From the sequence record QB031381.1: a stretch of 44,356 bases of DNA. One strand, written 5' to 3'. Source of the stretch: a phage. Shown here one piece after another: positions 22,787 through 42,775 of the stretch (the first letter of the stretch is position 1; every line of letters starts with the position of its first letter). The position numbers and the translations under genes are program-made. The notes under the pieces were generated by a model. That model did not search any database. It saw nothing but the letters and a program-made list of their open reading frames with translations, and was not told the DNA's origin.

Positions 22787-22982
22787 GGTATATCTCCGAT
22801 TGGTTAAGTTTAGGTGTCGACAGTTAACTTCGTCGGTGGCCTTAACATAGTGCCTGGTTGCGCGTTCTCCCTTTCGGGTAGTGGACCAGGTTATATAATC
22901 ACGGTTGGGAATCCTGACACTTCGATCCGGCCCCTGCGTTGCCCCTCTCCAGTTTGCGTCCTGCATCCTGTCGACGGGGTGA

Positions 22983-23012
22983 ATAATAGATTGGTTGCAG
23001 GATAGGTGTCAA
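22983..23012 (-). promoter_or_regulatory. Candidate leftward promoter (TTGACA-N18-TATTAT)
   Basis: Minus-strand reading; the spacer contains a TTGGTTGC copy (22991..22998). Confidence 0.4.
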
Positions 23013-23022
23013 CAACTAATTT

Positions 23023-23057
23023 AAAAAAAAAGCGCCGAGGCAAAATGCAACGGCGCT
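23023..23057 (-). terminator. Orphan intrinsic-terminator-like hairpin in the divergent control region
   Basis: Minus-strand AGCGCCG-loop-CGGCGCT followed by nine U; lies between the leftward and rightward promoters. Confidence 0.4.
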
Positions 23058-23127
23058 AACCAATAAGAGACAATGAGACGGGAGTATTATTACACGCGTG
23101 CGCGCCCGTTTCAATATTCCAAAGGAG

Positions 23128-23156
23128 TTGACACCCCGCGGTTTTAGGTGTAGTTT
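23128..23156 (+). promoter_or_regulatory. Candidate rightward promoter (TTGACA-N17-TAGTTT)
   Basis: Consensus -35 hexamer 55 nt upstream of the ATG at 23188. Confidence 0.45.
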
Positions 23157-23187
23157 CGTTGGTCATTAACCAACCGGAGACAGAACA

Positions 23188-23517
23188 ATGAATATCGACG
23201 ACGCAATCGAAATGTTAACTAAGACTGTTTGCAGTGAGACAAGCCGGTCCTGGGCATATACCGATGCCGTGGGTGCGGTGCTATTTGAAATCGAACGTCT
23301 GCGACTTACCGAAAAAGAATTGCGCGCGAAGCTGGAATTACTCAACGGTACGGCAGCAAGCAAGCTGCAAAAGCACAATGAGGAAATGGAAGAATACAAA
23401 AAACAGGTTATCCGTTTGCGCGATGAGGGGAAGTCATGGGCAATGATCGCTGAGTTGACAGGAATTAACCAAAGCACCGTGCGCTCCTGGGTACGCAATA
23501 ACAAAACTTCTAAGTAA
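23188..23517 (+). CDS. Small DNA-binding protein with C-terminal HTH
   Basis: C-terminal helix-turn-helix-like segment (KSWAMIAELTGINQSTVRSWV); first gene of the rightward operon. Confidence 0.5.
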   Translation: MNIDDAIEMLTKTVCSETSRSWAYTDAVGAVLFEIERLRLTEKELRAKLELLNGTAASKLQKHNEEMEEYKKQVIRLRDEGKSWAMIAELTGINQSTVRSWVRNNKTSK

Positions 23518-23527
23518 GGCCACGGCA

Positions 23528-25792
23528 ATGAGCTTAATTAAATTCGCTGTAACACGACCCGCTAAAAAAGGCGAAAAAGCCAGGGCGGAAAACTTCCAGA
23601 TGACAACTGATGAATTTTTCGAATTTATCAATGACGCGAAAGAAATCTCATCGGTGCACATCAACAAGACCGAGGATAAAGCCGAGTATGCGCGCCGCAA
23701 GCGCAAGGCCGATGGCATCGTGGCATATACCAGTGACGGCCTACGCCGTAAGACCAGCGCGGTGGACCGCTCGATCCTGTTCTTTGATATTGACCGCACC
23801 GATACTCGCACCTTGCGCCGCTGCCGTAAGGCTTTCATCGACGCGGGTCTGGAACACGTATTCCACACCACAACCGGCGACCGTCACCCACTGAAAGGCG
23901 GCACGCGTTGCGCCCGTTTCCTGGTGTTGACGGACAAGCCTGTCCCGGCGGAAGACCTGGGCCGTGTCCAGTATGCGCTATTACACCAACTTGGTCTGTC
24001 AGATGTGGACTTCGACGATTGCACGAAAGACACAAACCGCCTGATGTACCTGCCGCACCAGCAATCGGTTATTAAGTGCCGCTACGGCAAACGTGCCAAT
24101 GTGCGGCGTCTGCTCCGCCTGGCGGACAAGCTGGGGGTGGAGAAAGAGGAAGTACGCCGCGAACTAACCCAGGGCGACGACGAAGTGGCTGACGGCATTC
24201 TTGATTGGTGCTTCCAGGCTGGATTCGAGCCACTATCGTCCGGGCGTGGCTATGAAGTGCCGTGTCCGAACGAACATCTGCACAGCGGCGAAGGGTCGAC
24301 GGCTATCATGGTCAAGGATGGCGAGATCCGTTTCAAGTGTATGCACACCGGAAACGAGTGTTGCTCGGAACTGAACCGACACCAGCACCTGGCGCTTCGT
24401 CTTATCGGGATCCCGGACCACCTGAACGTCGAGCCACACAATATGTCCCGTAAGCAAATCGCCGCCATCCTGCCAGGTCTGGACGACGAGGAAGTCGAAT
24501 CCTTATATGATCACATTGTTGATGCGGTTGGCGACGGCGAAGAATATGGCGTGTGCACCGATGCGGATCTGGATAACGAGCCGGTTGCGCTGTTCAGTAA
24601 GCACGACCCGATCATCGAAGGTCTGATTAACTTCAAATCGACCTGGTATATGGCGGGCGAGTCGAACATCGGCAAGTCCTTCTATGTGCTGGGGCAGATG
24701 GGCGCGGTTGCCGCGGGTATCCCGTTTGGCGGTGCGAAGGTCGTCCAGTCTCATTGCTTCTATTTCGACGCGGAAGGCGGCGAAGCCTCCAACCAGCGCA
24801 AAGAAGCATTGCAGATTAAATACGAGCACGACCTGGATAAGCTGCACATTATCGATCTGCAATCACGCGGCTGGGATATCACCAGCAAATCAGGCTTGCG
24901 CGAAGTTATCAGCTATATCAACCGCACCGCTAACGGCGAGCCGGTCGGCCTGGTGGCGTTCGACTCACTCAACCAGACTGTTGCGTTGCGGTCCGCCGAT
25001 GCTAAACCGTTCGACGAGAACAACGCCAGCGATATGGGTGAAGTGGTCAAAGCGCTGAAAGCCATCGCGGAAAATACAGGCGGCAGTGCGGGCGTCATCC
25101 ACCACCCGGCGAAAGGGGCAAACGGCAGCAGAACGCCACGCGGGTCCGGCGCGCTGCATGGTGCTGTCGATTCTGCTTTCTTCCTGGAACAGCCGGACGA
25201 CAACCAGCCCGGACAATTGAACCTGTACCACGAAAAATCACGTAACGGCATCAAGCAAGCGCCGCGTGGCTTCGTCCTGCTCAAGTGCAAAGTTAAGGTT
25301 GATCTCCGCAAGTCTGAGGCATTCGCGTCGCACCAGTCCACCAGCACCGGGCCAGACTTCGGGGATGTGGTTGCCGGTTGGGACGTCAAGCCAATTGCAT
25401 CCACGCCACGCGACGAGACTCTCTACCTCGTACCGGTCGCCCTGGCACCGTTCGCTATAGAACAAGCGAAGGCCGCAGGAAAAGCCGCAGTTAAGGAAGA
25501 AAACGCCGCCGGTCCGCGCACCGAAAAAGAGAAAGTGCTTTATGCGGCCCTGGAAAAACTGATGGAAGATAACCCGGACCATACTGGTTTCAGTAAATCG
25601 GCAATCGTCCGCCAGGCGGGACTCGCTAAGGGTGGCACTTCGACGAAGGCAATCGACGATATGGTCGAGCGCGGCGTGATTGGTTTCTATACAGATCCGC
25701 ACACCGGGGCCATATATGGGTCGTCGAATTTAGTCATCAAATCGGATATCCCCATCACGCTTTCGGCGACCGATGATGACCTGAAAGATTAA
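23528..25792 (+). CDS. Primase-helicase (AEP-type primase/polymerase N-terminal domain plus P-loop NTPase domain)
   Basis: DxD motif (ILFFDIDRTD), Cys/His zinc-binding region (CPNEHLH...CMHTGNECC), Walker A (GESNIGKS) and a RecA-like segment; 754 aa. Confidence 0.7.
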   Translation: MSLIKFAVTRPAKKGEKARAENFQMTTDEFFEFINDAKEISSVHINKTEDKAEYARRKRKADGIVAYTSDGLRRKTSAVDRSILFFDIDRTDTRTLRRCRKAFIDAGLEHVFHTTTGDRHPLKGGTRCARFLVLTDKPVPAEDLGRVQYALLHQLGLSDVDFDDCTKDTNRLMYLPHQQSVIKCRYGKRANVRRLLRLADKLGVEKEEVRRELTQGDDEVADGILDWCFQAGFEPLSSGRGYEVPCPNEHLHSGEGSTAIMVKDGEIRFKCMHTGNECCSELNRHQHLALRLIGIPDHLNVEPHNMSRKQIAAILPGLDDEEVESLYDHIVDAVGDGEEYGVCTDADLDNEPVALFSKHDPIIEGLINFKSTWYMAGESNIGKSFYVLGQMGAVAAGIPFGGAKVVQSHCFYFDAEGGEASNQRKEALQIKYEHDLDKLHIIDLQSRGWDITSKSGLREVISYINRTANGEPVGLVAFDSLNQTVALRSADAKPFDENNASDMGEVVKALKAIAENTGGSAGVIHHPAKGANGSRTPRGSGALHGAVDSAFFLEQPDDNQPGQLNLYHEKSRNGIKQAPRGFVLLKCKVKVDLRKSEAFASHQSTSTGPDFGDVVAGWDVKPIASTPRDETLYLVPVALAPFAIEQAKAAGKAAVKEENAAGPRTEKEKVLYAALEKLMEDNPDHTGFSKSAIVRQAGLAKGGTSTKAIDDMVERGVIGFYTDPHTGAIYGSSNLVIKSDIPITLSATDDDLKD

Positions 25793-25897
25793 TTTTTGCG
25801 CGCATTGGTTGCCATTTTGAGTGTTTTTAGCTGGTAGCATTGGTTGCCGTGTAGTGTGAATATAGTGCATAGTTATGCAATAAAACTGCATAAAGTA

Positions 25898-26000
25898 AGC
25901 GGGACAAAAAGCGGGACAGACCAGGGGCGGGACAAAGCGGGACAGCACCCCGTCCCACCCCCGGATGACGCGGCCTGGAGGGGAGCGGGACAGGCGGGAC
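25898..26000 (+). repeat. Iteron array: six direct GCGGGACA repeats
   Basis: Copies at 25898, 25910, 25926, 25936, 25984 and 25993 (start positions), plus an imperfect GGGACAG-cacccc-GTCCC dyad. Confidence 0.8.
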
Positions 26001-26005
26001 AAACC

Positions 26006-26054
26006 CCAGTCTTTCAGACTAGACGGGGGTCAACGGCCCCCCTCGTCTGAGACT
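26006..26054. repeat. 49-bp GC-rich imperfect palindrome (copy A)
   Basis: cagtctttcagactagacgggggtcaacggcccccctcgtctgagactg; also present at 42659..42707 with one substitution. Confidence 0.8.
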
Positions 26055-26214
26055 GCATAAAATCCTGGATTGCAAAATACACGGCAGCATGTTGCGGATT
26101 GCGGTCGTCACTGAACTAGGCAACCAATGCGAGTTGCTGAATGGTGGGCGGAAAATGCAGTTTGCAGTCACAGCAGATAGCGATCAACTTTTTCATGCGC
26201 GTGATTAATATTGG

Positions 26215-26243
26215 TTGCATCCACCCCAGCACCCTGCTATATT
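26215..26243 (+). promoter_or_regulatory. Sigma70-like promoter (TTGCAT-N17-TATATT) flanked by two ATTGGTTGCA copies
   Basis: The -35 lies inside ATTGGTTGCAT (26209..26220); a second copy starts right after the -10 (TATATTGGTTGCACACCAA); 28 nt upstream of the ATG at 26271. Confidence 0.5.
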
Positions 26244-26270
26244 GGTTGCACACCAATAGGAGGGCGGAAC

Positions 26271-26450
26271 ATGAAAACCGAAATGGTTGATAAGCACGAA
26301 ATCAAGATCGGCGATACGGTAGTCCACAACGGGGAGCTTCGCACTGTGTGCAATCGAGCGTTTAGCATCGATGAATTTATGGGCCTGCTACTTTGGGGCG
26401 ACAGCTATCGTTTAGGGCATAAACTGGTTGAGAGGGTTACGGAACTATGA
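26271..26450 (+). CDS. Hypothetical protein
   Basis: 59 aa; ATG with GGAGGG RBS. The longer listed ORF starts at a TTG inside the promoter. Confidence 0.45.
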   Translation: MKTEMVDKHEIKIGDTVVHNGELRTVCNRAFSIDEFMGLLLWGDSYRLGHKLVERVTEL

Positions 26451-26752
26451 AAGCGATTATCTGGAATTACTCCCTGGCCGTGGCAAAGCTGGACGAAGCG
26501 AAGGCACTAAACGGCAACGTAGACTCGGCGCTTCAGGTCGCGATACTGGCGCATCAATCACTTCGCAACGCGCTTTACGGTATGGGCGCCAGCATGGACG
26601 AACTGAGGCCGTTGCGTAAGGCCATCCATGCATACGCGCAGGCATTCTCCCGCGAGCGCCTGGCGTATCGCTTCGGGATCGGTGAGACGGCAGTGACAAA
26701 CGTCGCCCGGATTAAAGCACAGCGCGAACTATTTGCCCAGCTTGCGAAATAA
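26447..26752 (+). CDS. Hypothetical protein with possible HTH (candidate regulator)
   Basis: HTH-like segment (RLAYRFGIGETAVTNVARI); start overlaps the upstream stop. Confidence 0.4.
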   Translation: MKAIIWNYSLAVAKLDEAKALNGNVDSALQVAILAHQSLRNALYGMGASMDELRPLRKAIHAYAQAFSRERLAYRFGIGETAVTNVARIKAQRELFAQLAK

Positions 26753-30515: not shown

Positions 30516-30645
30516 CGGCAACCCGTACCCCTCCCAGCCTGCCGATTTGGTGGGCTTTTTTGTGCCTGTTATAATCCCCCTTAGATGGCAGGGCCGTCTC
30601 CTATGTTGCCGATGGTCGGCGCATATGAACAAAAGGGTTTATATC

Positions 30646-31197
30646 ATGGCAGAAATCAAAGTTAAGGGCCGACGCGCCAAACTGGACGGACGAGTAGCAG
30701 TAACCCCGCGCCGTAAACCCGGCGAGCAAACCGAGCATACCAATCTCGGACCTGAAATCGAGTACGGAAAGCGCCGTAAAGGCGGCAAATGTGGACGCCC
30801 TACTGACTACCGATCCGTTTACTGTGACCAGCTTCGCCGCTATTTTGCCGACGCCGACGCCTGGCAGGTCAACTACTCCGATAAAGGCGCTGCGCAAGTA
30901 ATCCCCCGCAACAAAATGCCAACCTTCGGTCGATTTGCCGCGGAAATCGGCGTGGGCGTAGCTTGCCTGTATCGCTGGGCGCGTGCGCATGAGGAGTTCG
31001 CTGAGGCGATGGCGGACGCAATGGAGTTACAAAAAACCTTCCTGATGGAAGCTGGCGGCGTGACCATCGCGGCAGGCTTCGCTACATTCCTGCTTAAAGC
31101 AAACCACGGCGTCCGCGACGATGTGCCGCTGGATGACGACGAAGATGATAACGGCGACGTCGTAGTGGAACCTTCCGGCAAAGGCCAGGGTGAATAA
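30646..31197 (+). CDS. Terminase small subunit
   Basis: 183 aa directly upstream of the large subunit with an overlapping stop/start; HTH-like RFAAEIGVGVACLYRWARAH; acidic C-terminus. Confidence 0.55.
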   Translation: MAEIKVKGRRAKLDGRVAVTPRRKPGEQTEHTNLGPEIEYGKRRKGGKCGRPTDYRSVYCDQLRRYFADADAWQVNYSDKGAAQVIPRNKMPTFGRFAAEIGVGVACLYRWARAHEEFAEAMADAMELQKTFLMEAGGVTIAAGFATFLLKANHGVRDDVPLDDDEDDNGDVVVEPSGKGQGE

Positions 31198-32582
31198 TGC
31201 GTAACTATGCGGCAGAACACCGCGCACTGGAACGCGCGATCGCAAAGCGCAACCGACCGCCACGCCCGACACGCGTTGCGCAGGCCGTCCGCCTTTACCA
31301 GCCTGATTGCTTGCCGCACCAGGTTGAACTACTGCGCGACACAAAGACTAAAATCCTCGGCCTGTGTTCCGGCTTCGGCGGTGGAAAGTCGTGGGTCGCT
31401 GCGCGTAAGGTCATCCAGCTTTTAACCCTGAACCCCGGTCATGACGGCATCGTTACAGAACCGACTATTCCCCTCCTGGTTAAAATCATGTATCCGGAAC
31501 TGGAGAAGGCATTCGACGAGGCTGGATTCCGGTGGAAATTCAATAAGCAGGATAAGATCTACAACGTGCTGGTAAAAGGCAAATGGACCCGCGTGATCTG
31601 TGAATCAATGGAGAACTATACCCGCCTGATCGGGGTCAACGCCGCGTGGATTGTTGCCGACGAGTTCGACACCACGAAACAAGACGTCGCGCTGGCGGCG
31701 TATCACAAATTGCTCGGTCGTCTGCGTGCTGGCTTCGTCCGCCAGTTCGTCATCGTATCGACGCCTGAAGGCTACCGGGCGATGTACCAAATTTTCGAGG
31801 TGGAGAAAGACAACCAGAAACGCCTGATCCGGGCGAAGACCACGGACAACCACCATTTACCGGCGGACTTTATCGACACGCTCCGCAGTCAGTACCCAGC
31901 TAACCTGATTGATGCGTACCTGAACGGCCTGTTTGTTAACCTTACGTCGGGCGCGGTGTACAAGATGTTTAATCGCGAGGAGAACGCCAGCACCGAAGAA
32001 GTGCAGCCGGACGACACGCTGATTATCGGTATGGACTTTAACGTCACGAAGATGGCGGCGGTTGTGTACGTCAGACGGCAGCGAGTCACCGAGAACAAGG
32101 AGTTCCGCGACGAGATTCACGCGGTGGATGAATTTGTGGACCTGTTTGACACCCCGGCTATGGTTGAGGCGATCGAGGAGCGCTACCCAGATCATTGTGC
32201 TGCCGGTCGTGTTGTCGTTTACCCGGATAGCAGCGGCAAATCCCGCAAGACGGTCAACGCGTCGTCGTCCGATATCGCACAACTGGAAGATGCGGGCTTC
32301 GAGGTGGAGTATGACAGCGTTAACCCACCTGTGAAAGATCGATTGATCGCGATGAATACGATGATGTGCAACTCGAAGGGCGTGCGCCAGTATTTTGTCA
32401 ACCTGGATAAATGCCCTACACTAGCGAAATGCCTGGAACAGCAGGTGTACGACCTGAAGAAAGGCGAGCCGGATAAAACTGCCGGTGTGGACCACATGAA
32501 TGACGCAGCGGGCTACCCTATTGCGCACTTGTTCCCTGTGATTCGTCCGATCGCCGTTGTTCCAACTGTAGACTTCTACTAA
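31197..32582 (+). CDS. Terminase large subunit
   Basis: Walker A-like (GLCSGFGGGKSW), Walker B-like (WIVADEFD), C-terminal nuclease-type acidic residues; 461 aa before the portal gene. Confidence 0.8.
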   Translation: MRNYAAEHRALERAIAKRNRPPRPTRVAQAVRLYQPDCLPHQVELLRDTKTKILGLCSGFGGGKSWVAARKVIQLLTLNPGHDGIVTEPTIPLLVKIMYPELEKAFDEAGFRWKFNKQDKIYNVLVKGKWTRVICESMENYTRLIGVNAAWIVADEFDTTKQDVALAAYHKLLGRLRAGFVRQFVIVSTPEGYRAMYQIFEVEKDNQKRLIRAKTTDNHHLPADFIDTLRSQYPANLIDAYLNGLFVNLTSGAVYKMFNREENASTEEVQPDDTLIIGMDFNVTKMAAVVYVRRQRVTENKEFRDEIHAVDEFVDLFDTPAMVEAIEERYPDHCAAGRVVVYPDSSGKSRKTVNASSSDIAQLEDAGFEVEYDSVNPPVKDRLIAMNTMMCNSKGVRQYFVNLDKCPTLAKCLEQQVYDLKKGEPDKTAGVDHMNDAAGYPIAHLFPVIRPIAVVPTVDFY

Positions 32583-40919: not shown

Positions 40920-41645
40920 ATGGGTTATCAACTTCCTAACGGGTCCAGCGTGCAGATTGGGTCCGTATTGGGTGCAGGCATCGCAGTTACGGCAGCGACC
41001 AACGCCGCTGCGTCGATCTCCGACCTTACGCAAGGTTGCGTAATTACCTGCGCGGAGTCTCACGGTCTGGTTGTTGGCGACGTTGTTATGTTCACTAAAA
41101 CCCCGTGGGTCCGTGCGCTGAACCGAGCGTTCATCGTTGGTAAAGTATCCGGGAACGACGTGACGCTGGCGCGCTTCGATACTCAAGACGCCACCAAATA
41201 CCCGACCGGTGCTTTCGGCGTAGGCACACCAGGCGAGGTGGTGAAGGTGTCGAACTTTATCGATTTCCCGTTTATCACTAACGTCGCCGTGTCTGGTGGC
41301 GACCAGCAGACCACCACTTTCCAGCCGTTGCAGGTGAATACCGCGATCAGTCTGAACACCACGAAAAACCCGTTGGTCCAGACCTACACTTTCACCCACG
41401 ACGAAGAAGACCCGATCCGCCCGATTCTGGAAGACCTGGACGACACACAGAAAACCACTGTGATTAAGTTCACCAACCCGGCAGCGGCAAGCGGCAAAGG
41501 TGAGATCCGCATTTACCCGGCTAAGGTGTCTTTCCGGAAGATTCCATCTGCTGAAGTAAACAACGTGGAGACGGTGGAGTCCACCCTCACTATGCAGTCC
41601 GATATGGTTATTTACCGTAAGGACTTGGTCGAGGCGCTGTCGTGA
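40920..41645 (+). CDS. Major tail protein
   Basis: 241 aa, upstream of the G/G-T chaperone pair and followed by a terminator hairpin. Confidence 0.6.
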   Translation: MGYQLPNGSSVQIGSVLGAGIAVTAATNAAASISDLTQGCVITCAESHGLVVGDVVMFTKTPWVRALNRAFIVGKVSGNDVTLARFDTQDATKYPTGAFGVGTPGEVVKVSNFIDFPFITNVAVSGGDQQTTTFQPLQVNTAISLNTTKNPLVQTYTFTHDEEDPIRPILEDLDDTQKTTVIKFTNPAAASGKGEIRIYPAKVSFRKIPSAEVNNVETVESTLTMQSDMVIYRKDLVEALS

Positions 41646-41675: not shown

Positions 41676-41698
41676 GGGGCCAGTACGGCCCCTTTTTT
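41676..41698 (+). terminator. Intrinsic terminator/attenuator after major tail gene
   Basis: GGGGCC-AGTA-CGGCCCC hairpin followed by TTTTTT. Confidence 0.5.
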
Positions 41699-42391: not shown

Positions 42392-42395
42392 CGAA

Positions 42396-42653
42396 GCGGG
42401 ACAGGCGGGACGTCCCGTTTTGTCCCGCCACCATTAAACCGCATATATACTCACTTTCATTGCATAAACTAAAAGCGGGACAGGGGTGCTGTCCCAATCT
42501 GTCCCGCCCCTTAAAAGTGAATAGCTATTCTGTTTTCCTGCATAAAACAAACGGGACAGAAAGCGGGACAGAATGAGGCGGGACAAAGCGGGACAGCACC
42601 CCTGTCCCCGTCAGTGCTGCCGCGGGTTTTAGCCGATCGGGACAGGCGGGACA
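42396..42653. repeat. Iteron array: about 12 (G)CGGGACA repeats in both orientations, with GGGACAG-N6-CTGTCCC dyads
   Basis: Copies at 42396, 42405, 42421 (rc), 42475, 42500 (rc), 42552, 42563, 42578, 42588, 42638 and 42646; dyads at 42477..42495 and 42589..42607. Confidence 0.8.
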
Positions 42654-42658
42654 AATCC

Positions 42659-42707
42659 CAGTCTTTCAGACTAGACGGGGGTCAATGGCCCCCCTCGTCT
42701 GAGACTG
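42659..42707. repeat. 49-bp GC-rich imperfect palindrome (copy B)
   Basis: cagtctttcagactagacgggggtcaatggcccccctcgtctgagactg; one substitution relative to copy A. Confidence 0.8.
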
Positions 42708-42775
42708 AATAAGGTTTGTTTTAAATTCGCTGATACAATGATCGACGGCAACTGCATAAAAAGGGGGACTGCATA

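What the first reader, a model, noticed from the sequence alone, without database searches (positions are those of the whole stretch)
25885..26060. Duplicated iteron array with conserved 49-bp palindrome, copy A (downstream of the primase-helicase gene)
Six direct GCGGGACA repeats within about 100 bp sit immediately after the primase-helicase stop, followed by a 49-bp GC-rich imperfect palindrome. About 75 bp (25981..26058) is near-identical to a second locus at 42635..42711. Clustered short iterons next to a replication initiator gene are the hallmark of phage and plasmid origins; satellite phage P4 has two such clusters (ori and crr) bound by its primase-helicase. No coding potential explains the conservation. 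The block could be an origin or cis-replication region, or a binding array for a phage regulator or packaging protein.
Basis: partly seen in the sequence, partly recalled or inferred. Interest (0 to 1): 0.8.

Follow-up and report, generated by a model that had tools for sequence, protein, structure and literature searches.

The report
Probable phage replication origin, duplicated
The repeat block after the primase-helicase gene of this HK578-like E. coli phage is most likely its replication origin, with a second copy inside the tail genes; this is an ordinary kind of element that has never been mapped in this phage group.

Summary
GCGGGACA occurs 18 times in the window against 2 expected. Six direct copies lie at 25899-26001, followed by a 49-nt imperfect hairpin (26007-26055). 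The whole ~200-bp module is repeated at 42512-42713 (81% identity; the last 78 bp are 91% identical).

The window is a Dhillonvirus (HK578-like). Both copies are present in nearly all of 159 related genomes, and the repeats and hairpin are better conserved than the spacers.

Three results point to an origin:
- Primase-helicase lineages at 43-68% identity keep the same layout (palindromic box, AT-rich stretch, repeats, GC-rich hairpin) but change the repeat (GGGACA, GGGAGA, GGGATA, TGCGAG). The change tracks the start of helix 3 in a predicted C-terminal winged helix.
- In IMG/VR, 38 of 40 unrelated AAA_25 helicase genes near a GGGACA array have it at their 3' end, and 22 more arrays lie inside DnaD/O-like initiator genes. 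A permuted control motif gave none.
- Plasmid-recorded AAA_25 replicons have the same layout with other motifs.

No binding or initiation data exist. Sodalis phage SO-1's GenBank record already flags both regions as repeat regions. Verdict: a new member of a known kind, of moderate interest. The closest analogues are SPP1 oriL/oriR, P4 ori/crr, RSF1010 oriV and pRN1.

The parts
23188..23517 (+). Small HTH protein gene (109 aa), first gene of the rightward early operon (HK578 gp45 equivalent).
   Evidence: Pfam HTH_23 4.6e-07 and Sigma70_r4_2 2.1e-06. A small HTH gene precedes the primase-helicase gene in all lineages looked at.
23528..25792 (+). Primase-helicase (754 aa): N-terminal primase-like part, AAA_25/RepA-type helicase core (residues 357-531) and a C-terminal region.
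   Evidence: Pfam AAA_25 1.3e-19. PHROG 3228 'replicative helicase-primase', E = 0. Only PDB sequence hit is RSF1010 RepA 1g8y, E = 0.54.
25517..25744 (+). Region coding for the predicted C-terminal winged helix (about residues 664-739), the candidate iteron reader.
   Evidence: AlphaFold model pLDDT 82-90 over fragment residues 130-200, with H-H-H-strand-wing-strand order. Foldseek top hits are MarR/ArsR/Rio2/H1/ORC winged helices, prob 0.96-0.99 but E >= 0.03. The start of helix 3 varies with the iteron core across lineages.
25804..25847 (+). Two ATTGGTTGC boxes upstream of the module. They belong to a genome-wide motif, not to the iteron set.
   Evidence: TTGGTTGC occurs 18 times against 2 expected. 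Copies at 25805, 25840, 26120(-), 26211 and 26242 bracket the module.
25865..25878 (.). Near-palindromic box GTGCATAGTTATGC at the start of module A.
   Evidence: Pattern GTGMATAGYTATKC is found only at 25865 and 42517 in the window. It is also present in HK578, twice in VSiA and twice in L279, where the iterons differ.
25855..25898 (.). AT-rich stretch with TGCATAAA (25887-25894); candidate DNA-unwinding element.
   Evidence: GC 0.27 against 0.55 for the genome. Six of the 12 TGCATAA copies in the window lie inside or next to the two modules.
25899..25944 (+). Iterons 1-4 of copy A (GCGGGACA at 25899, 25911, 25927, 25937).
   Evidence: In 14 distinct Dhillonvirus copies, motif columns are 92.7% conserved against 82.7% for the other module columns.
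25939..25956 (.). Small dyad GGGAC-N8-GTCCC formed by iteron 4 and a partial inverted copy.
   Evidence: -8.7 kcal/mol, z -2.4. The equivalent in B is 42590-42608.
25945..25984 (.). GC-rich spacer specific to copy A.
   Evidence: GC 0.78. It differs from the B spacer but is conserved among A copies.
25985..26001 (+). Iterons 5-6 of copy A (GCGGGACA-G-GCGGGACA).
   Evidence: Near-identical in A and B.
26007..26055 (.). 49-nt imperfect GC-rich hairpin or cruciform.
   Evidence: Folding. 94-97.5% column conservation in 14 A and 14 B copies. Other lineages carry a GC-rich dyad of different sequence at the same place, but the folding z-scores are mixed (-1.1 to -3.7).
26054..26088 (+). Second TGCATAAA followed by ACGGCAGC (26081-26088).
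   Evidence: ACGGCARC follows the hairpin in every lineage examined.
42396..42428 (.). Copy B, dyad B1: GCGGGACA-G-GCGGGAC / GTCCCG-TTT-TGTCCCGC.
   Evidence: -24.8 kcal/mol, z -4.2.
42429..42474 (.). AT-rich spacer with TGCATAA (42461).
   Evidence: GC 0.30.
42475..42507 (.). Copy B, dyad B2: GCGGGACAG...CTGTCCC...TGTCCCGC.
   Evidence: -21.8 kcal/mol, z -4.1.
42508..42551 (.). AT-rich stretch with the perfect palindrome GAATAGCTATTC (42519-42530, within the box match 42517-42530) and TGCATAAA (42539).
   Evidence: GC 0.32.
42552..42653 (+). Copy B3 iterons: four direct copies (42552, 42563, 42578, 42588), the dyad 42590-42608, a B-specific spacer, then two direct copies (42638, 42646).
   Evidence: Aligns with copy A throughout.
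42659..42707 (.). Copy B hairpin. It differs from the A hairpin by a single base, in the loop-proximal part (TCAAC in A, TCAAT in B).
42745..42752 (+). ACGGCAAC, 38 bp after the B hairpin.

Best explanation
Copy A (about 25855-26090) is the phage's replication origin, or at least the main site where its initiator assembles.

Proposed steps (all inferred, none shown):
1. The early operon makes the small HTH protein and the primase-helicase.
2. The C-terminal winged helix of the primase-helicase reads the GCGGGACA iterons (4 + 2 direct copies and a partial inverted copy).
3. Bound monomers assemble the RepA-type ring next to the AT-rich stretches (27-32% GC), which melt.
4. The conserved 49-nt GC-rich dyad extrudes, or folds once the DNA is single-stranded. 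It serves as the loading or priming structure, like ssiA/ssiB of RSF1010 or the stem-loop 3' of pRN1 orf904.
5. The enzyme's own primase domain starts synthesis nearby.

Copy B (42392-42715) is a paralogous module bound by the same protein. It would act either as a second origin or, as proposed for SPP1 oriR, as an initiator-bound fork barrier that helps the switch to concatemer synthesis.

Shown here: the sequence anatomy, its conservation, and its statistical link to initiator genes.
For: 1. The motif is enriched and confined to two loci.
2. The module is conserved in 159 Dhillonvirus records, nearly all with at least 2 copies. Iterons and hairpin are better conserved than spacers.
3. The module architecture is kept across primase-helicase lineages while the iteron changes:
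   - GCGGGACA in the window and in L274 (68% identity)
   - GGGGGAGA in VSiA
   - AGGGATAA in L279
   - GGGGATC in L276
   - TTGCGAGT in L275
   - TTGCGA(A/T)T in L278
   - TTCCGCACA in Otaku

4. The residues at the start of helix 3 of the C-terminal winged helix follow the same grouping: T/S-x-T-K/T; DRYK; xRRP; xYxK/D. The fold is supported.
5. Among non-Dhillonvirus IMG/VR loci with CGGGACA x3, 38 of the 40 that have an AAA_25-like helicase within 3.5 kb have the array -300 to +200 bp from that gene's 3' end. 22 more have it inside DnaD/O-like initiator genes, just after their wHTH.
6. The permuted control CAGGGCA x3 gave 120 loci, with one AAA_25 hit 3.4 kb away and no O-like hit.
7. Circular plasmid records with AAA_25 helicases have the same 3' layout with other motifs.
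8. AT-rich flanks are present.
9. Literature precedents:
   - SPP1 has two repeat-plus-DUE origins, and oriR interrupts the late genes (PMC6316719, PMC3485210).
   - In pRN1 the origin stem-loop lies 3' of the primase-helicase-wH gene, which follows a small repressor gene (PMC4234260).
   - RSF1010 has ssiA/ssiB hairpins (PMC8567376).
10. HK578 escapers of the OLD defence map to gp46 and to the gp45-46 promoter. The authors link this to origin-associated DNA structures (bioRxiv 10.64898/2026.07.10.737580).
Against: - No experiment shows binding, melting or initiation here.
- The iteron/helix-3 correlation is confounded by phylogeny: only about seven lineages, and everything co-varies with lineage.
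- Foldseek hits to winged helices are not significant by E-value (best 0.034).
- Iteron spacings (12, 16, 10 ... 9 bp) are not helically phased, unlike many plasmid iterons.
- In Dhillonvirus and its nearest relatives the array also marks the early/late operon boundary, so position alone does not exclude a transcriptional role.
- The more distant RP180 (32% identity) has no array after its primase-helicase gene.
- GC skew follows transcription and gives no origin signal.
- The stems of the hairpin are invariant within Dhillonvirus, so there is no covariation to prove a structure.
Confidence: 0.7

Rival explanations
1. The block is a transcriptional control region for the early-to-late switch. 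The repeats would be binding sites for a phage regulator, for example the 109-aa HTH protein. The hairpin would act as an insulator or terminator at the end of the early operon, and copy B would be a booster or antitermination site within the long late operon.
For: - A lies exactly between the last early gene and the first late gene.
- B lies after an intrinsic terminator (41676-41692) and before the tape-measure gene.
- TGCATAAA resembles a -10 element and clusters in both modules.
- TTGGTTGC regulator-like boxes flank the module.
- The palindromic box sits in a promoter spacer in RP180.
Against: - No sigma-70-like promoter or + strand terminator is called in either module, and no U-tract follows the hairpin.
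- In unrelated phages the same motif arrays lie inside initiator genes or at helicase 3' ends, whatever follows.
- Plasmid-recorded replicons share the layout.
- The flanking regulatory motifs (TTGGTTGC, the palindromic box) stay constant across lineages whose iterons change, so they behave as a separate system.
Confidence: 0.12
2. It is an RNA-level element. The transcribed repeats and hairpins would form a structured RNA: an RNase III-type processing or stability site, a cis-acting antitermination RNA like HK022 put, or a protein sponge.
For: - Both copies are transcribed in the sense direction of the flanking genes.
- The hairpin is a roughly 20-bp imperfect stem, and region B folds far better than shuffles (z -9).
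- The two copies recall putL/putR (from memory).
Against: - No Rfam family matches.
- Motif orientation relative to transcription is mixed in other lineages and in B, as expected for duplex recognition.
- The hairpin shows no compensatory changes.
- The fold signal of B is a direct consequence of motif and inverted-motif pairs.
- The link to initiator genes is not explained.
Confidence: 0.05
3. It is a packaging recognition site (pac), with the repeats bound by the small terminase subunit.
For: - Pac regions of some phages contain short repeated boxes (from memory: SPP1, P1).
- In L011, L018 and L028 the array lies upstream of the terminase genes.
Against: - In the window the array lies 4.5 kb upstream of the terminase genes (30547-32582), with about 15 genes between.
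- A second copy sits in the tail operon.
- The iteron changes track the primase-helicase C-terminus, and arrays occur inside initiator genes in 22 loci.
Confidence: 0.03
4. It is a selfish or neutral duplicated repeat element, such as a MITE-like insertion, with no function for the phage.
For: - A ~200-bp module is present twice, bounded by similar short motifs (TGCATAAA).
- A second module sits at a different late-operon position in Otaku.
Against: - Both copies are kept at fixed positions in nearly all of the 159 genomes (at least 2 places per record apart from one incomplete record), with better conservation than their spacers.
- No further copies exist in the window.
- Copy-specific spacers are conserved within each copy type.
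Confidence: 0.03

Closest known systems
Bacillus phage SPP1 oriL / oriR with origin-binding protein gp38
   Same: - A lytic siphovirus of about 44 kb with two loci built from the same direct repeats plus AT-rich DNA. One locus is at the initiator gene. The other lies in an intergenic segment that interrupts the conserved late-gene order.
- The loci are about 13 kb apart in SPP1 and 16.6 kb apart here.
- The second site is proposed to stall forks and trigger the theta-to-concatemer switch (PMC6316719, PMC3485210).
   Different: - SPP1 oriL lies inside gene 38; here the array is 107 bp downstream of the gene.
- SPP1 uses a DnaD-like organiser plus a separate loader and a DnaB-type helicase and host primase. 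Here a single primase-helicase with a C-terminal winged helix is the candidate.
- The repeats are unrelated in sequence.
Satellite phage P4 ori and crr bound by the alpha primase-helicase
   Same: - One polypeptide combines primase, helicase and a C-terminal winged-helix origin-binding domain.
- Short octamer iterons occur in two separate clusters, one next to the gene (from memory; summarised in PMC4234260).
   Different: - P4 alpha has a Toprim primase (PMC4234260) and, from memory, an SF3 helicase. Here the core is AAA_25/RepA-type.
- The P4 iteron TGTTCACC (from memory) is not the repeat seen here.
- crr is a pair of 120-bp direct repeats (from memory), whereas B here is a paralogue of the whole module plus two dyads.
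RSF1010 (IncQ) oriV with RepC, RepA and RepB'
   Same: - RepA is the archetype of the helicase family found here.
- oriV combines iterons, an AT-rich region and about 40-nt hairpins (ssiA, ssiB) that are exposed after unwinding and recognised by the plasmid's own primase (PMC8567376, PMC4234260).
   Different: - The three functions sit on three proteins in RSF1010 and would be fused here.
- RSF1010 has 20-bp iterons (from memory) and two ssi hairpins on opposite strands. Here the iterons are 8 bp and there is a single palindrome per module.
pRN1 (Sulfolobus) replicon: orf56-orf904 plus 3' stem-loop origin
   Same: - An operon of a small DNA-binding protein gene followed by a primase-helicase-winged-helix gene.
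- The essential cis element is a stem-loop just 3' of that gene. Its structure is conserved while its sequence turns over.
- The authors note similar arrangements in bacteriophages (PMC4234260).
   Different: - pRN1 has no iterons and uses an SF3 helicase with an archaeo-eukaryotic primase.
- Its stem-loop is about 100 nt.
Lambda ori inside gene O (and DnaD/O-like phage initiators)
   Same: Arrays of the same (C)GGGACA core lie inside 22 DnaD/O-like initiator genes, just after the wHTH-coding part. From memory, this matches the placement of the lambda iterons inside O.
   Different: - In the window the array is outside the gene, and the initiator is a helicase rather than a helicase-recruiting organiser.
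- The lambda iterons are 19-bp palindromes (from memory).

Membership tests
Iteron-type replication origin next to its initiator gene | A cluster of at least 3 copies of one short motif, enriched over chance. | tested here: met
   6 copies in 103 bp at A and 8 exact (13 core) copies at B; 18 against 2 expected genome-wide.
Iteron-type replication origin next to its initiator gene | Physical linkage to the initiator gene, recurring in independent lineages. | tested here: met
   107 bp after the primase-helicase stop. Among IMG/VR loci, 38 of 40 AAA_25 cases and 22 O-like cases show the linkage, against 0 adjacent in a permuted-motif control. Plasmid records show the same layout.
Iteron-type replication origin next to its initiator gene | An adjacent AT-rich DNA-unwinding element. 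| tested here: met
   Flanking stretches have GC 0.27-0.37 against 0.55 for the genome. Melting itself was not tested.
Iteron-type replication origin next to its initiator gene | The initiator has a sequence-specific DNA-binding domain whose specificity matches the iterons. | tested here: inconclusive
   A confident winged-helix model (pLDDT 82-90), but only generic fold hits with E >= 0.03. Helix-3 residues co-vary with the iteron core in about 7 lineages, without phylogenetic correction.
Iteron-type replication origin next to its initiator gene | Regular, helically phased iteron spacing (about 11 or 22 bp). | tested here: not met
   Start-to-start spacings are 12, 16, 10 and 9 bp in A, and 11, 15, 10 and 8 bp in B.
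Iteron-type replication origin next to its initiator gene | Initiator binding and replication start mapped to the site; the site supports autonomous replication. | not testable with these tools
   Needs EMSA or ChIP, marker-frequency sequencing and a plasmid ori assay.
P4 ori/crr system | Alpha-type protein: Toprim primase + SF3 helicase + C-terminal winged helix. | tested here: not met
   Only AAA_25 (RecA/RepA-type) is found. No SF3/D5 or Toprim family is detected. A winged helix is predicted at the C-terminus.
P4 ori/crr system | Type I iterons TGTTCACC in ori and crr (recalled from memory). | tested here: not met
   The repeated motif is GCGGGACA.
SPP1-type dual origin (oriL/oriR) | Two loci with the same repeats plus AT-rich DNA, the second interrupting the late-gene order. 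| tested here: met
   A and B share an 81%-identical module. B fills a 380-bp gap between the tail chaperone and tape-measure genes. Otaku also has a second module inside its late operon.
SPP1-type dual origin (oriL/oriR) | A DnaD-like origin-binding organiser with a separate loader and DnaB-type helicase. | tested here: not met
   A single primase-helicase, and no DnaD/O-like gene among the annotated genes of HK578.
RSF1010-type oriV | RepA-family helicase. | tested here: met
   Pfam AAA_25 1.3e-19. The only PDB sequence hit is RepA 1g8y, which is weak (E = 0.54).
RSF1010-type oriV | Two ssi hairpins on opposite strands recognised by a dedicated primase. | tested here: inconclusive
   There is one palindrome per module, and it can fold on either strand. 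Primase recognition was not testable.
Intrinsic (Rho-independent) terminator | A GC-rich stem-loop followed directly by a T/U run. | tested here: not met
   No + strand terminator is called in 22900-26500, nor at the B hairpin. The hairpin is followed by CATAAAATCC in A and AATAAGG in B.
Any curated RNA family (Rfam 15) | A match at the gathering threshold. | tested here: not met
   0 matches in the whole window.

The most novel reading that the evidence does not exclude
The module would be a self-contained, portable origin cassette: palindromic box, AT-rich DNA, iterons, an ssi-like hairpin and an ACGGCARC start signal. One fused primase-helicase would serve it, doing the jobs that RSF1010 splits among RepC, RepA and RepB'.

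Phages of this group would deliberately carry a second cassette inside the late operon. It is found at different places in Dhillonvirus and in Otaku, so it was probably acquired independently. It would set fork direction or trigger the switch to concatemers.

The genome-wide polar octamer ACGGCARC (54 copies, 41:13) would be the primase's, or a Chi-like, fork-oriented signal that diverges from these cassettes.
Probability: 0.15. Interest if true: 0.75.

Novelty: new member of a known kind. Interest (0 to 1): 0.45.

Why it matters
Dhillonviruses (HK578, the BASEL phages and several therapy candidates) and the related Guernseyvirinae are widely used, yet none of the papers I searched maps or describes an origin for them.

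A defined origin would:
- allow minimal replicons and engineering vectors;
- help explain why defence systems such as OLD select escape mutations in the primase-helicase and its promoter;
- give a simple system, one protein and a 200-bp site, for studying how a fused primase-helicase-winged-helix enzyme opens DNA.

The lineage series GGGACA / GGGAGA / GGGATA, paired with changes in helix 3, is a ready-made natural experiment in how initiator specificity is rewired.

The second copy offers a Gram-negative counterpart to the SPP1 oriR model for the theta-to-sigma switch.

Tried and rejected
- Rfam scan of the whole window: no match.
- Promoter and terminator scans of both regions: no + strand site in either module. 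Only minus-strand terminator-like hits, made by the B1 and B2 dyads.
- GC skew: it follows transcription, with its minimum at the divergent early promoters near 23 kb, and says nothing about A or B.
- Full-text search for GCGGGACA: 892 papers; none of the 10 listed concerns phage. Searches on Dhillonvirus, HK578 and SO-1 found no description of the repeats.
- Protein search with the C-terminal domain alone: no hits. The full-length query worked.
- Looking for a shared DNA-binding domain among the initiators that use GGGACA gave no evidence of a common reader:
  - BLAST between C-termini found nothing.
  - An O-like wHTH profile hit only O-like proteins.
  - hhalign of the Dhillonvirus C-terminal domain against the conserved IMG/VR C-terminal domain gave probability 3%.
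- Pfam on the array-containing ORFs: almost nothing. PHROGs was informative.
Only the genomic context differs.
- Fold search gave only generic winged-helix matches and no specific origin-binding domain.
- RP180 (32% identity primase-helicase): a terminator and a reverse-strand HTH gene follow the gene, with no array.
- CsrA-type sponge, RfaH ops, G-quadruplex, Chi and T7-primase-site readings were considered from memory. I dropped them because the motif does not fit, or because relatives with other iterons lack the feature.
Full report
**What is there.** The window is a nearly complete genome of an HK578-like Escherichia siphophage (genus Dhillonvirus). The region 25700-26300 matches 159 phage records at up to 95-97% identity. 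The gene order matches HK578.

GCGGGACA occurs 18 times against 2 expected. Fourteen of these copies fall in two places. Locus A has six direct copies at 25899-26001. They start 107 bp after the stop of the 754-aa primase-helicase (23528-25792), and locus A ends about 210 bp before the first late gene (ATG at 26271). Locus B (42396-42653) lies in a 380-bp gap between the tail assembly chaperone and the tape-measure gene.

The 49-nt imperfect palindrome (26007-26055 in A, 42659-42707 in B) folds well as RNA or DNA on either strand, with z-scores of -3.7 to -4.9.

**Anatomy.** A is homologous to the last third of B over its whole length: 81% over 201 bp, and 91% over the last 78 bp. The shared module, in order, is:
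- a near-palindromic box, GTG(C/A)ATAG(T/C)TAT(G/T)C;
- an AT-rich stretch with TGCATAAA (GC 0.27-0.32 against 0.55 for the genome);
- four direct iterons, the fourth forming a small dyad with a partial inverted copy;
- a copy-specific GC-rich spacer;
- two abutting iterons;
- the hairpin;
- TGCATAAA (TGAATAAG in B);
- ACGGCA(G/A)C, 25-38 bp further on.

B has in addition two dyads made of the motif and its inverse, separated by AT-rich DNA.

**Conservation.** All 159 related records hold the module, and all but one incomplete record hold at least two places. In 14 distinct A and 14 distinct B copies, iteron columns are 93-95% conserved and hairpin columns 94-97.5%, against 83% for the rest of the module. 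The hairpin stems do not vary, so they give no covariation evidence for or against a structure.

**Relatives with a diverged primase-helicase.** A homologue series and its genomic contexts show that the layout is kept: a small HTH gene, the primase-helicase gene, a 290-650-bp non-coding gap, then the late genes. In most of these lineages the gap holds iterons followed by a GC-rich dyad, and two of them (VSiA, L279) also keep the palindromic box; one lineage (L277) showed no clear iteron. The iteron itself changes:

| Lineage | Iteron |
|---|---|
| Window, and L274 (68% identity) | GCGGGACA |
| VSiA | GGGGGAGA |
| L279 | AGGGATAA |
| L276 | GGGGATC, in inverted pairs |
| L275 | TTGCGAGT |
| L278 | TTGCGA(A/T)T |
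| Otaku | TTCCGCACA, in inverted pairs |

The flanking motifs (TTGGTTGC-like boxes, the palindromic box, ACGGCARC) do not change in step with the iterons. They behave as separate systems.

**Candidate reader.** The last ~90 residues of the primase-helicase are modelled with pLDDT 82-90 as helix-helix-helix-strand-wing-strand. The best Foldseek matches are winged-helix proteins (MarR, ArsR-like, Rio2 N-domain, histone H1, ORC). Probabilities reach 0.99, but no E-value is below 0.03.

In the alignment, the residues that follow a conserved GG at the start of helix 3 sort as the iterons do:
- T/S-x-T-K/T with GGGACA
- DRYK with GGGAGA
- (K/N)RRP with GGGAT
- (N/H/R)Y-x-(K/D) with TGCG(A/G)

This is suggestive, but it rests on about seven lineages and is not corrected for phylogeny.

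**The same motif elsewhere.** Among the 108 non-Dhillonvirus loci analysed (these plus three arrays from an earlier scan):
- 40 have an AAA_25-like helicase gene within 3.5 kb. In 38 of these the array starts between -300 and +200 bp of that gene's 3' end.
- 22 more have the array inside a gene matching PHROG 'DnaD-like helicase loader / replication initiation O-like' families, directly after its wHTH-coding part. From memory, this is the lambda ori-in-O layout.
- One locus has it after a primase-like gene of another family.

A composition-matched control motif (CAGGGCA x3) also filled 120 rows. Only one of those loci had an AAA_25-like ORF, 3.4 kb away, and none had an O-like gene.

Two circular plasmid records with AAA_25 helicases show the same 3' arrangement with other motifs. 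One of them reproduces the '3 direct + 1 inverted, spacer, 2 direct + hairpin' pattern.

**Interpretation.** The most economical reading is an iteron-type origin served by the adjacent initiator.

The mechanism proposed in the Best explanation section is inferred from established systems:
- P4 alpha binds its iterons through a C-terminal winged helix.
- In RSF1010, RepC binds the iterons, RepA unwinds, and RepB' primes on the ssiA/ssiB hairpins.
- In pRN1 the essential cis element is a stem-loop 3' of the primase-helicase-wH gene, which follows a small repressor gene (PMC4234260, PMC8567376).

For copy B the best precedent is SPP1. There oriL sits at the initiator gene, and oriR lies in an intergenic segment that interrupts the late genes. 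Both share repeats and an AT-rich element, and gp38 bound at oriR is proposed to stall forks and trigger concatemer synthesis (PMC6316719, PMC3485210).

Otaku also carries a second module inside its late operon, at a different position. It has an inverted iteron pair, a GC-rich dyad bounded by TATGCT...AGCATACCATT, and ACGGCAGC. Having two modules therefore seems to be selected rather than accidental.

**Rivals.**
- A transcriptional switch region remains possible (0.12), because A marks the early/late boundary. But no promoter or terminator is called in the modules, and the cross-lineage contexts are not operon boundaries.
- RNA-level readings lack Rfam support. They also fit poorly with the mixed motif orientation.
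- A pac site and a selfish repeat are unlikely, given the position and the conservation.

**What is already known.** The GenBank record of Sodalis phage SO-1 (GQ502199) annotates both loci as repeat_regions: 'region A' and 'region B', described as 'direct, inverted and palindromic repeat sequences ... possible ...'. The repeats are therefore not a new sighting.

I found no paper that describes or tests them. A 2026 preprint on the OLD defence reports HK578 escape mutations in gp46 and in the gp45-46 promoter, and argues for origin-associated hairpins as triggers, but it does not map the HK578 origin.

**Limits.**
- Everything here is comparative.
- The survey was seeded with this motif, so it cannot say how common GGGACA is among all iterons. 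Why several unrelated initiators use it is unexplained.
- The iteron spacings are not helically phased.

Noticed in passing
window, genome-wide; e.g. 26081-26088 and 42745-42752; also L002 and L003: ACGGCARC is the most abundant 8-mer in the window. There are 54 copies (41 on the + strand, 13 on the - strand), about 1-1.8 per kb, in all codon phases and in non-coding DNA. ACGGCAGC alone occurs 30 times against 2.4 expected. One copy follows each module hairpin, and this holds in every related lineage examined. The motif is also enriched in VSiA (27 against 3.8) and Otaku (32 against 4.9). In Otaku its strand flips from - to + at 15.33-15.86 kb, bracketing the second iteron pair, although all genes there are on one strand. 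There may be a second flip near the main array. The window shows no flip at B. It could be a fork-oriented signal (primase start or Chi-like). The flip analysis is post hoc.
   Followed up: partly
window 25805, 25840, 26120(-), 26211, 26242, 22991, 11595/11607, 13510/13527, 20083/20099 and others: TTGGTTGC occurs 18 times against 2 expected, often in pairs. It overlaps promoter-like sequences, such as the leftward early promoter at 23012-22983 and TTGCAT-N17-TATATT at 26214-26242. Related lineages have TTGGCAGC, TTGGCCGC or TGTTGGCTG at the same places. It is probably the operator of a phage regulator, separate from the iterons.
   Followed up: partly
window 25865-25878 and 42517-42530; L003 37039 and 37060; L279 3823 and 3844; L280 about 1790: The palindromic box GTGMATAGYTATKC opens each module. 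It is conserved in lineages whose iterons differ. In RP180 a TGAATAGTT sequence lies in the spacer of a strong TTGACA-N17-TATTAT promoter. The protein that binds it is unknown.
   Followed up: partly
L002 (Serratia phage Otaku) 15310-15530: There is a second origin-like module inside the late operon, between gp20 and gp21. It has an inverted TTCCGCACA pair, AT-rich DNA, a GC-rich dyad bounded by TATGCT...AGCATACCATT, and ACGGCAGC, paralleling the main module after the primase-helicase (26150-26560). It sits at a different place from Dhillonvirus copy B.
   Followed up: partly
IMG/VR loci L040, L042, L056, L067, L085, L088, L090, L093, L118-L121, L131, L134, L135, L137, L138, L145, L152, L153 and others: This is a coherent family of DnaD/O-like initiators with no Pfam match. 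The GGGACA array is translated as the low-complexity linker after the N-terminal wHTH, for example '...GMITKRTAEGTKQTIITVCNFDKYN...GQLAGQNRDNVGTTSGQRRD'. The iterons therefore double as coding sequence.
   Followed up: partly
IMG/VR loci L045-L150 (33 sequences): AAA_25 helicases linked to GGGACA arrays share a conserved C-terminal domain, 'A.L..L...G...vP...WR..FY...d.kKKAF.RA...L...g.i...vW.v'. It is not detectably related to the Dhillonvirus C-terminus (hhalign probability 3%).
   Followed up: partly
window 41676-41692: A canonical intrinsic terminator (GGGGCCAGTACGGCCCC followed by TTTTTTATTG) sits right after the major tail protein gene (40920-41645). That is upstream of the chaperone genes and of copy B.
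   Followed up: no
window 25887, 26054, 42461, 42539, 42753, 42770: TGCATAA(A) clusters in and around the two modules: 6 of the 12 copies in the window, all on the + strand. The last copy overlaps the tape-measure start codon. Genome-wide enrichment is only marginal (12 against 5.5 expected; 1 of 100 shuffles reaches 12).
   Followed up: no
plasmid record CP088689.1 (E. coli, 44,086 bp): This record is listed as a plasmid but encodes a full-length primase-helicase homologue (34% identity, 97% coverage). It has the size of a phage genome of this group, so it may be a phage or a phage-plasmid.
   Followed up: no
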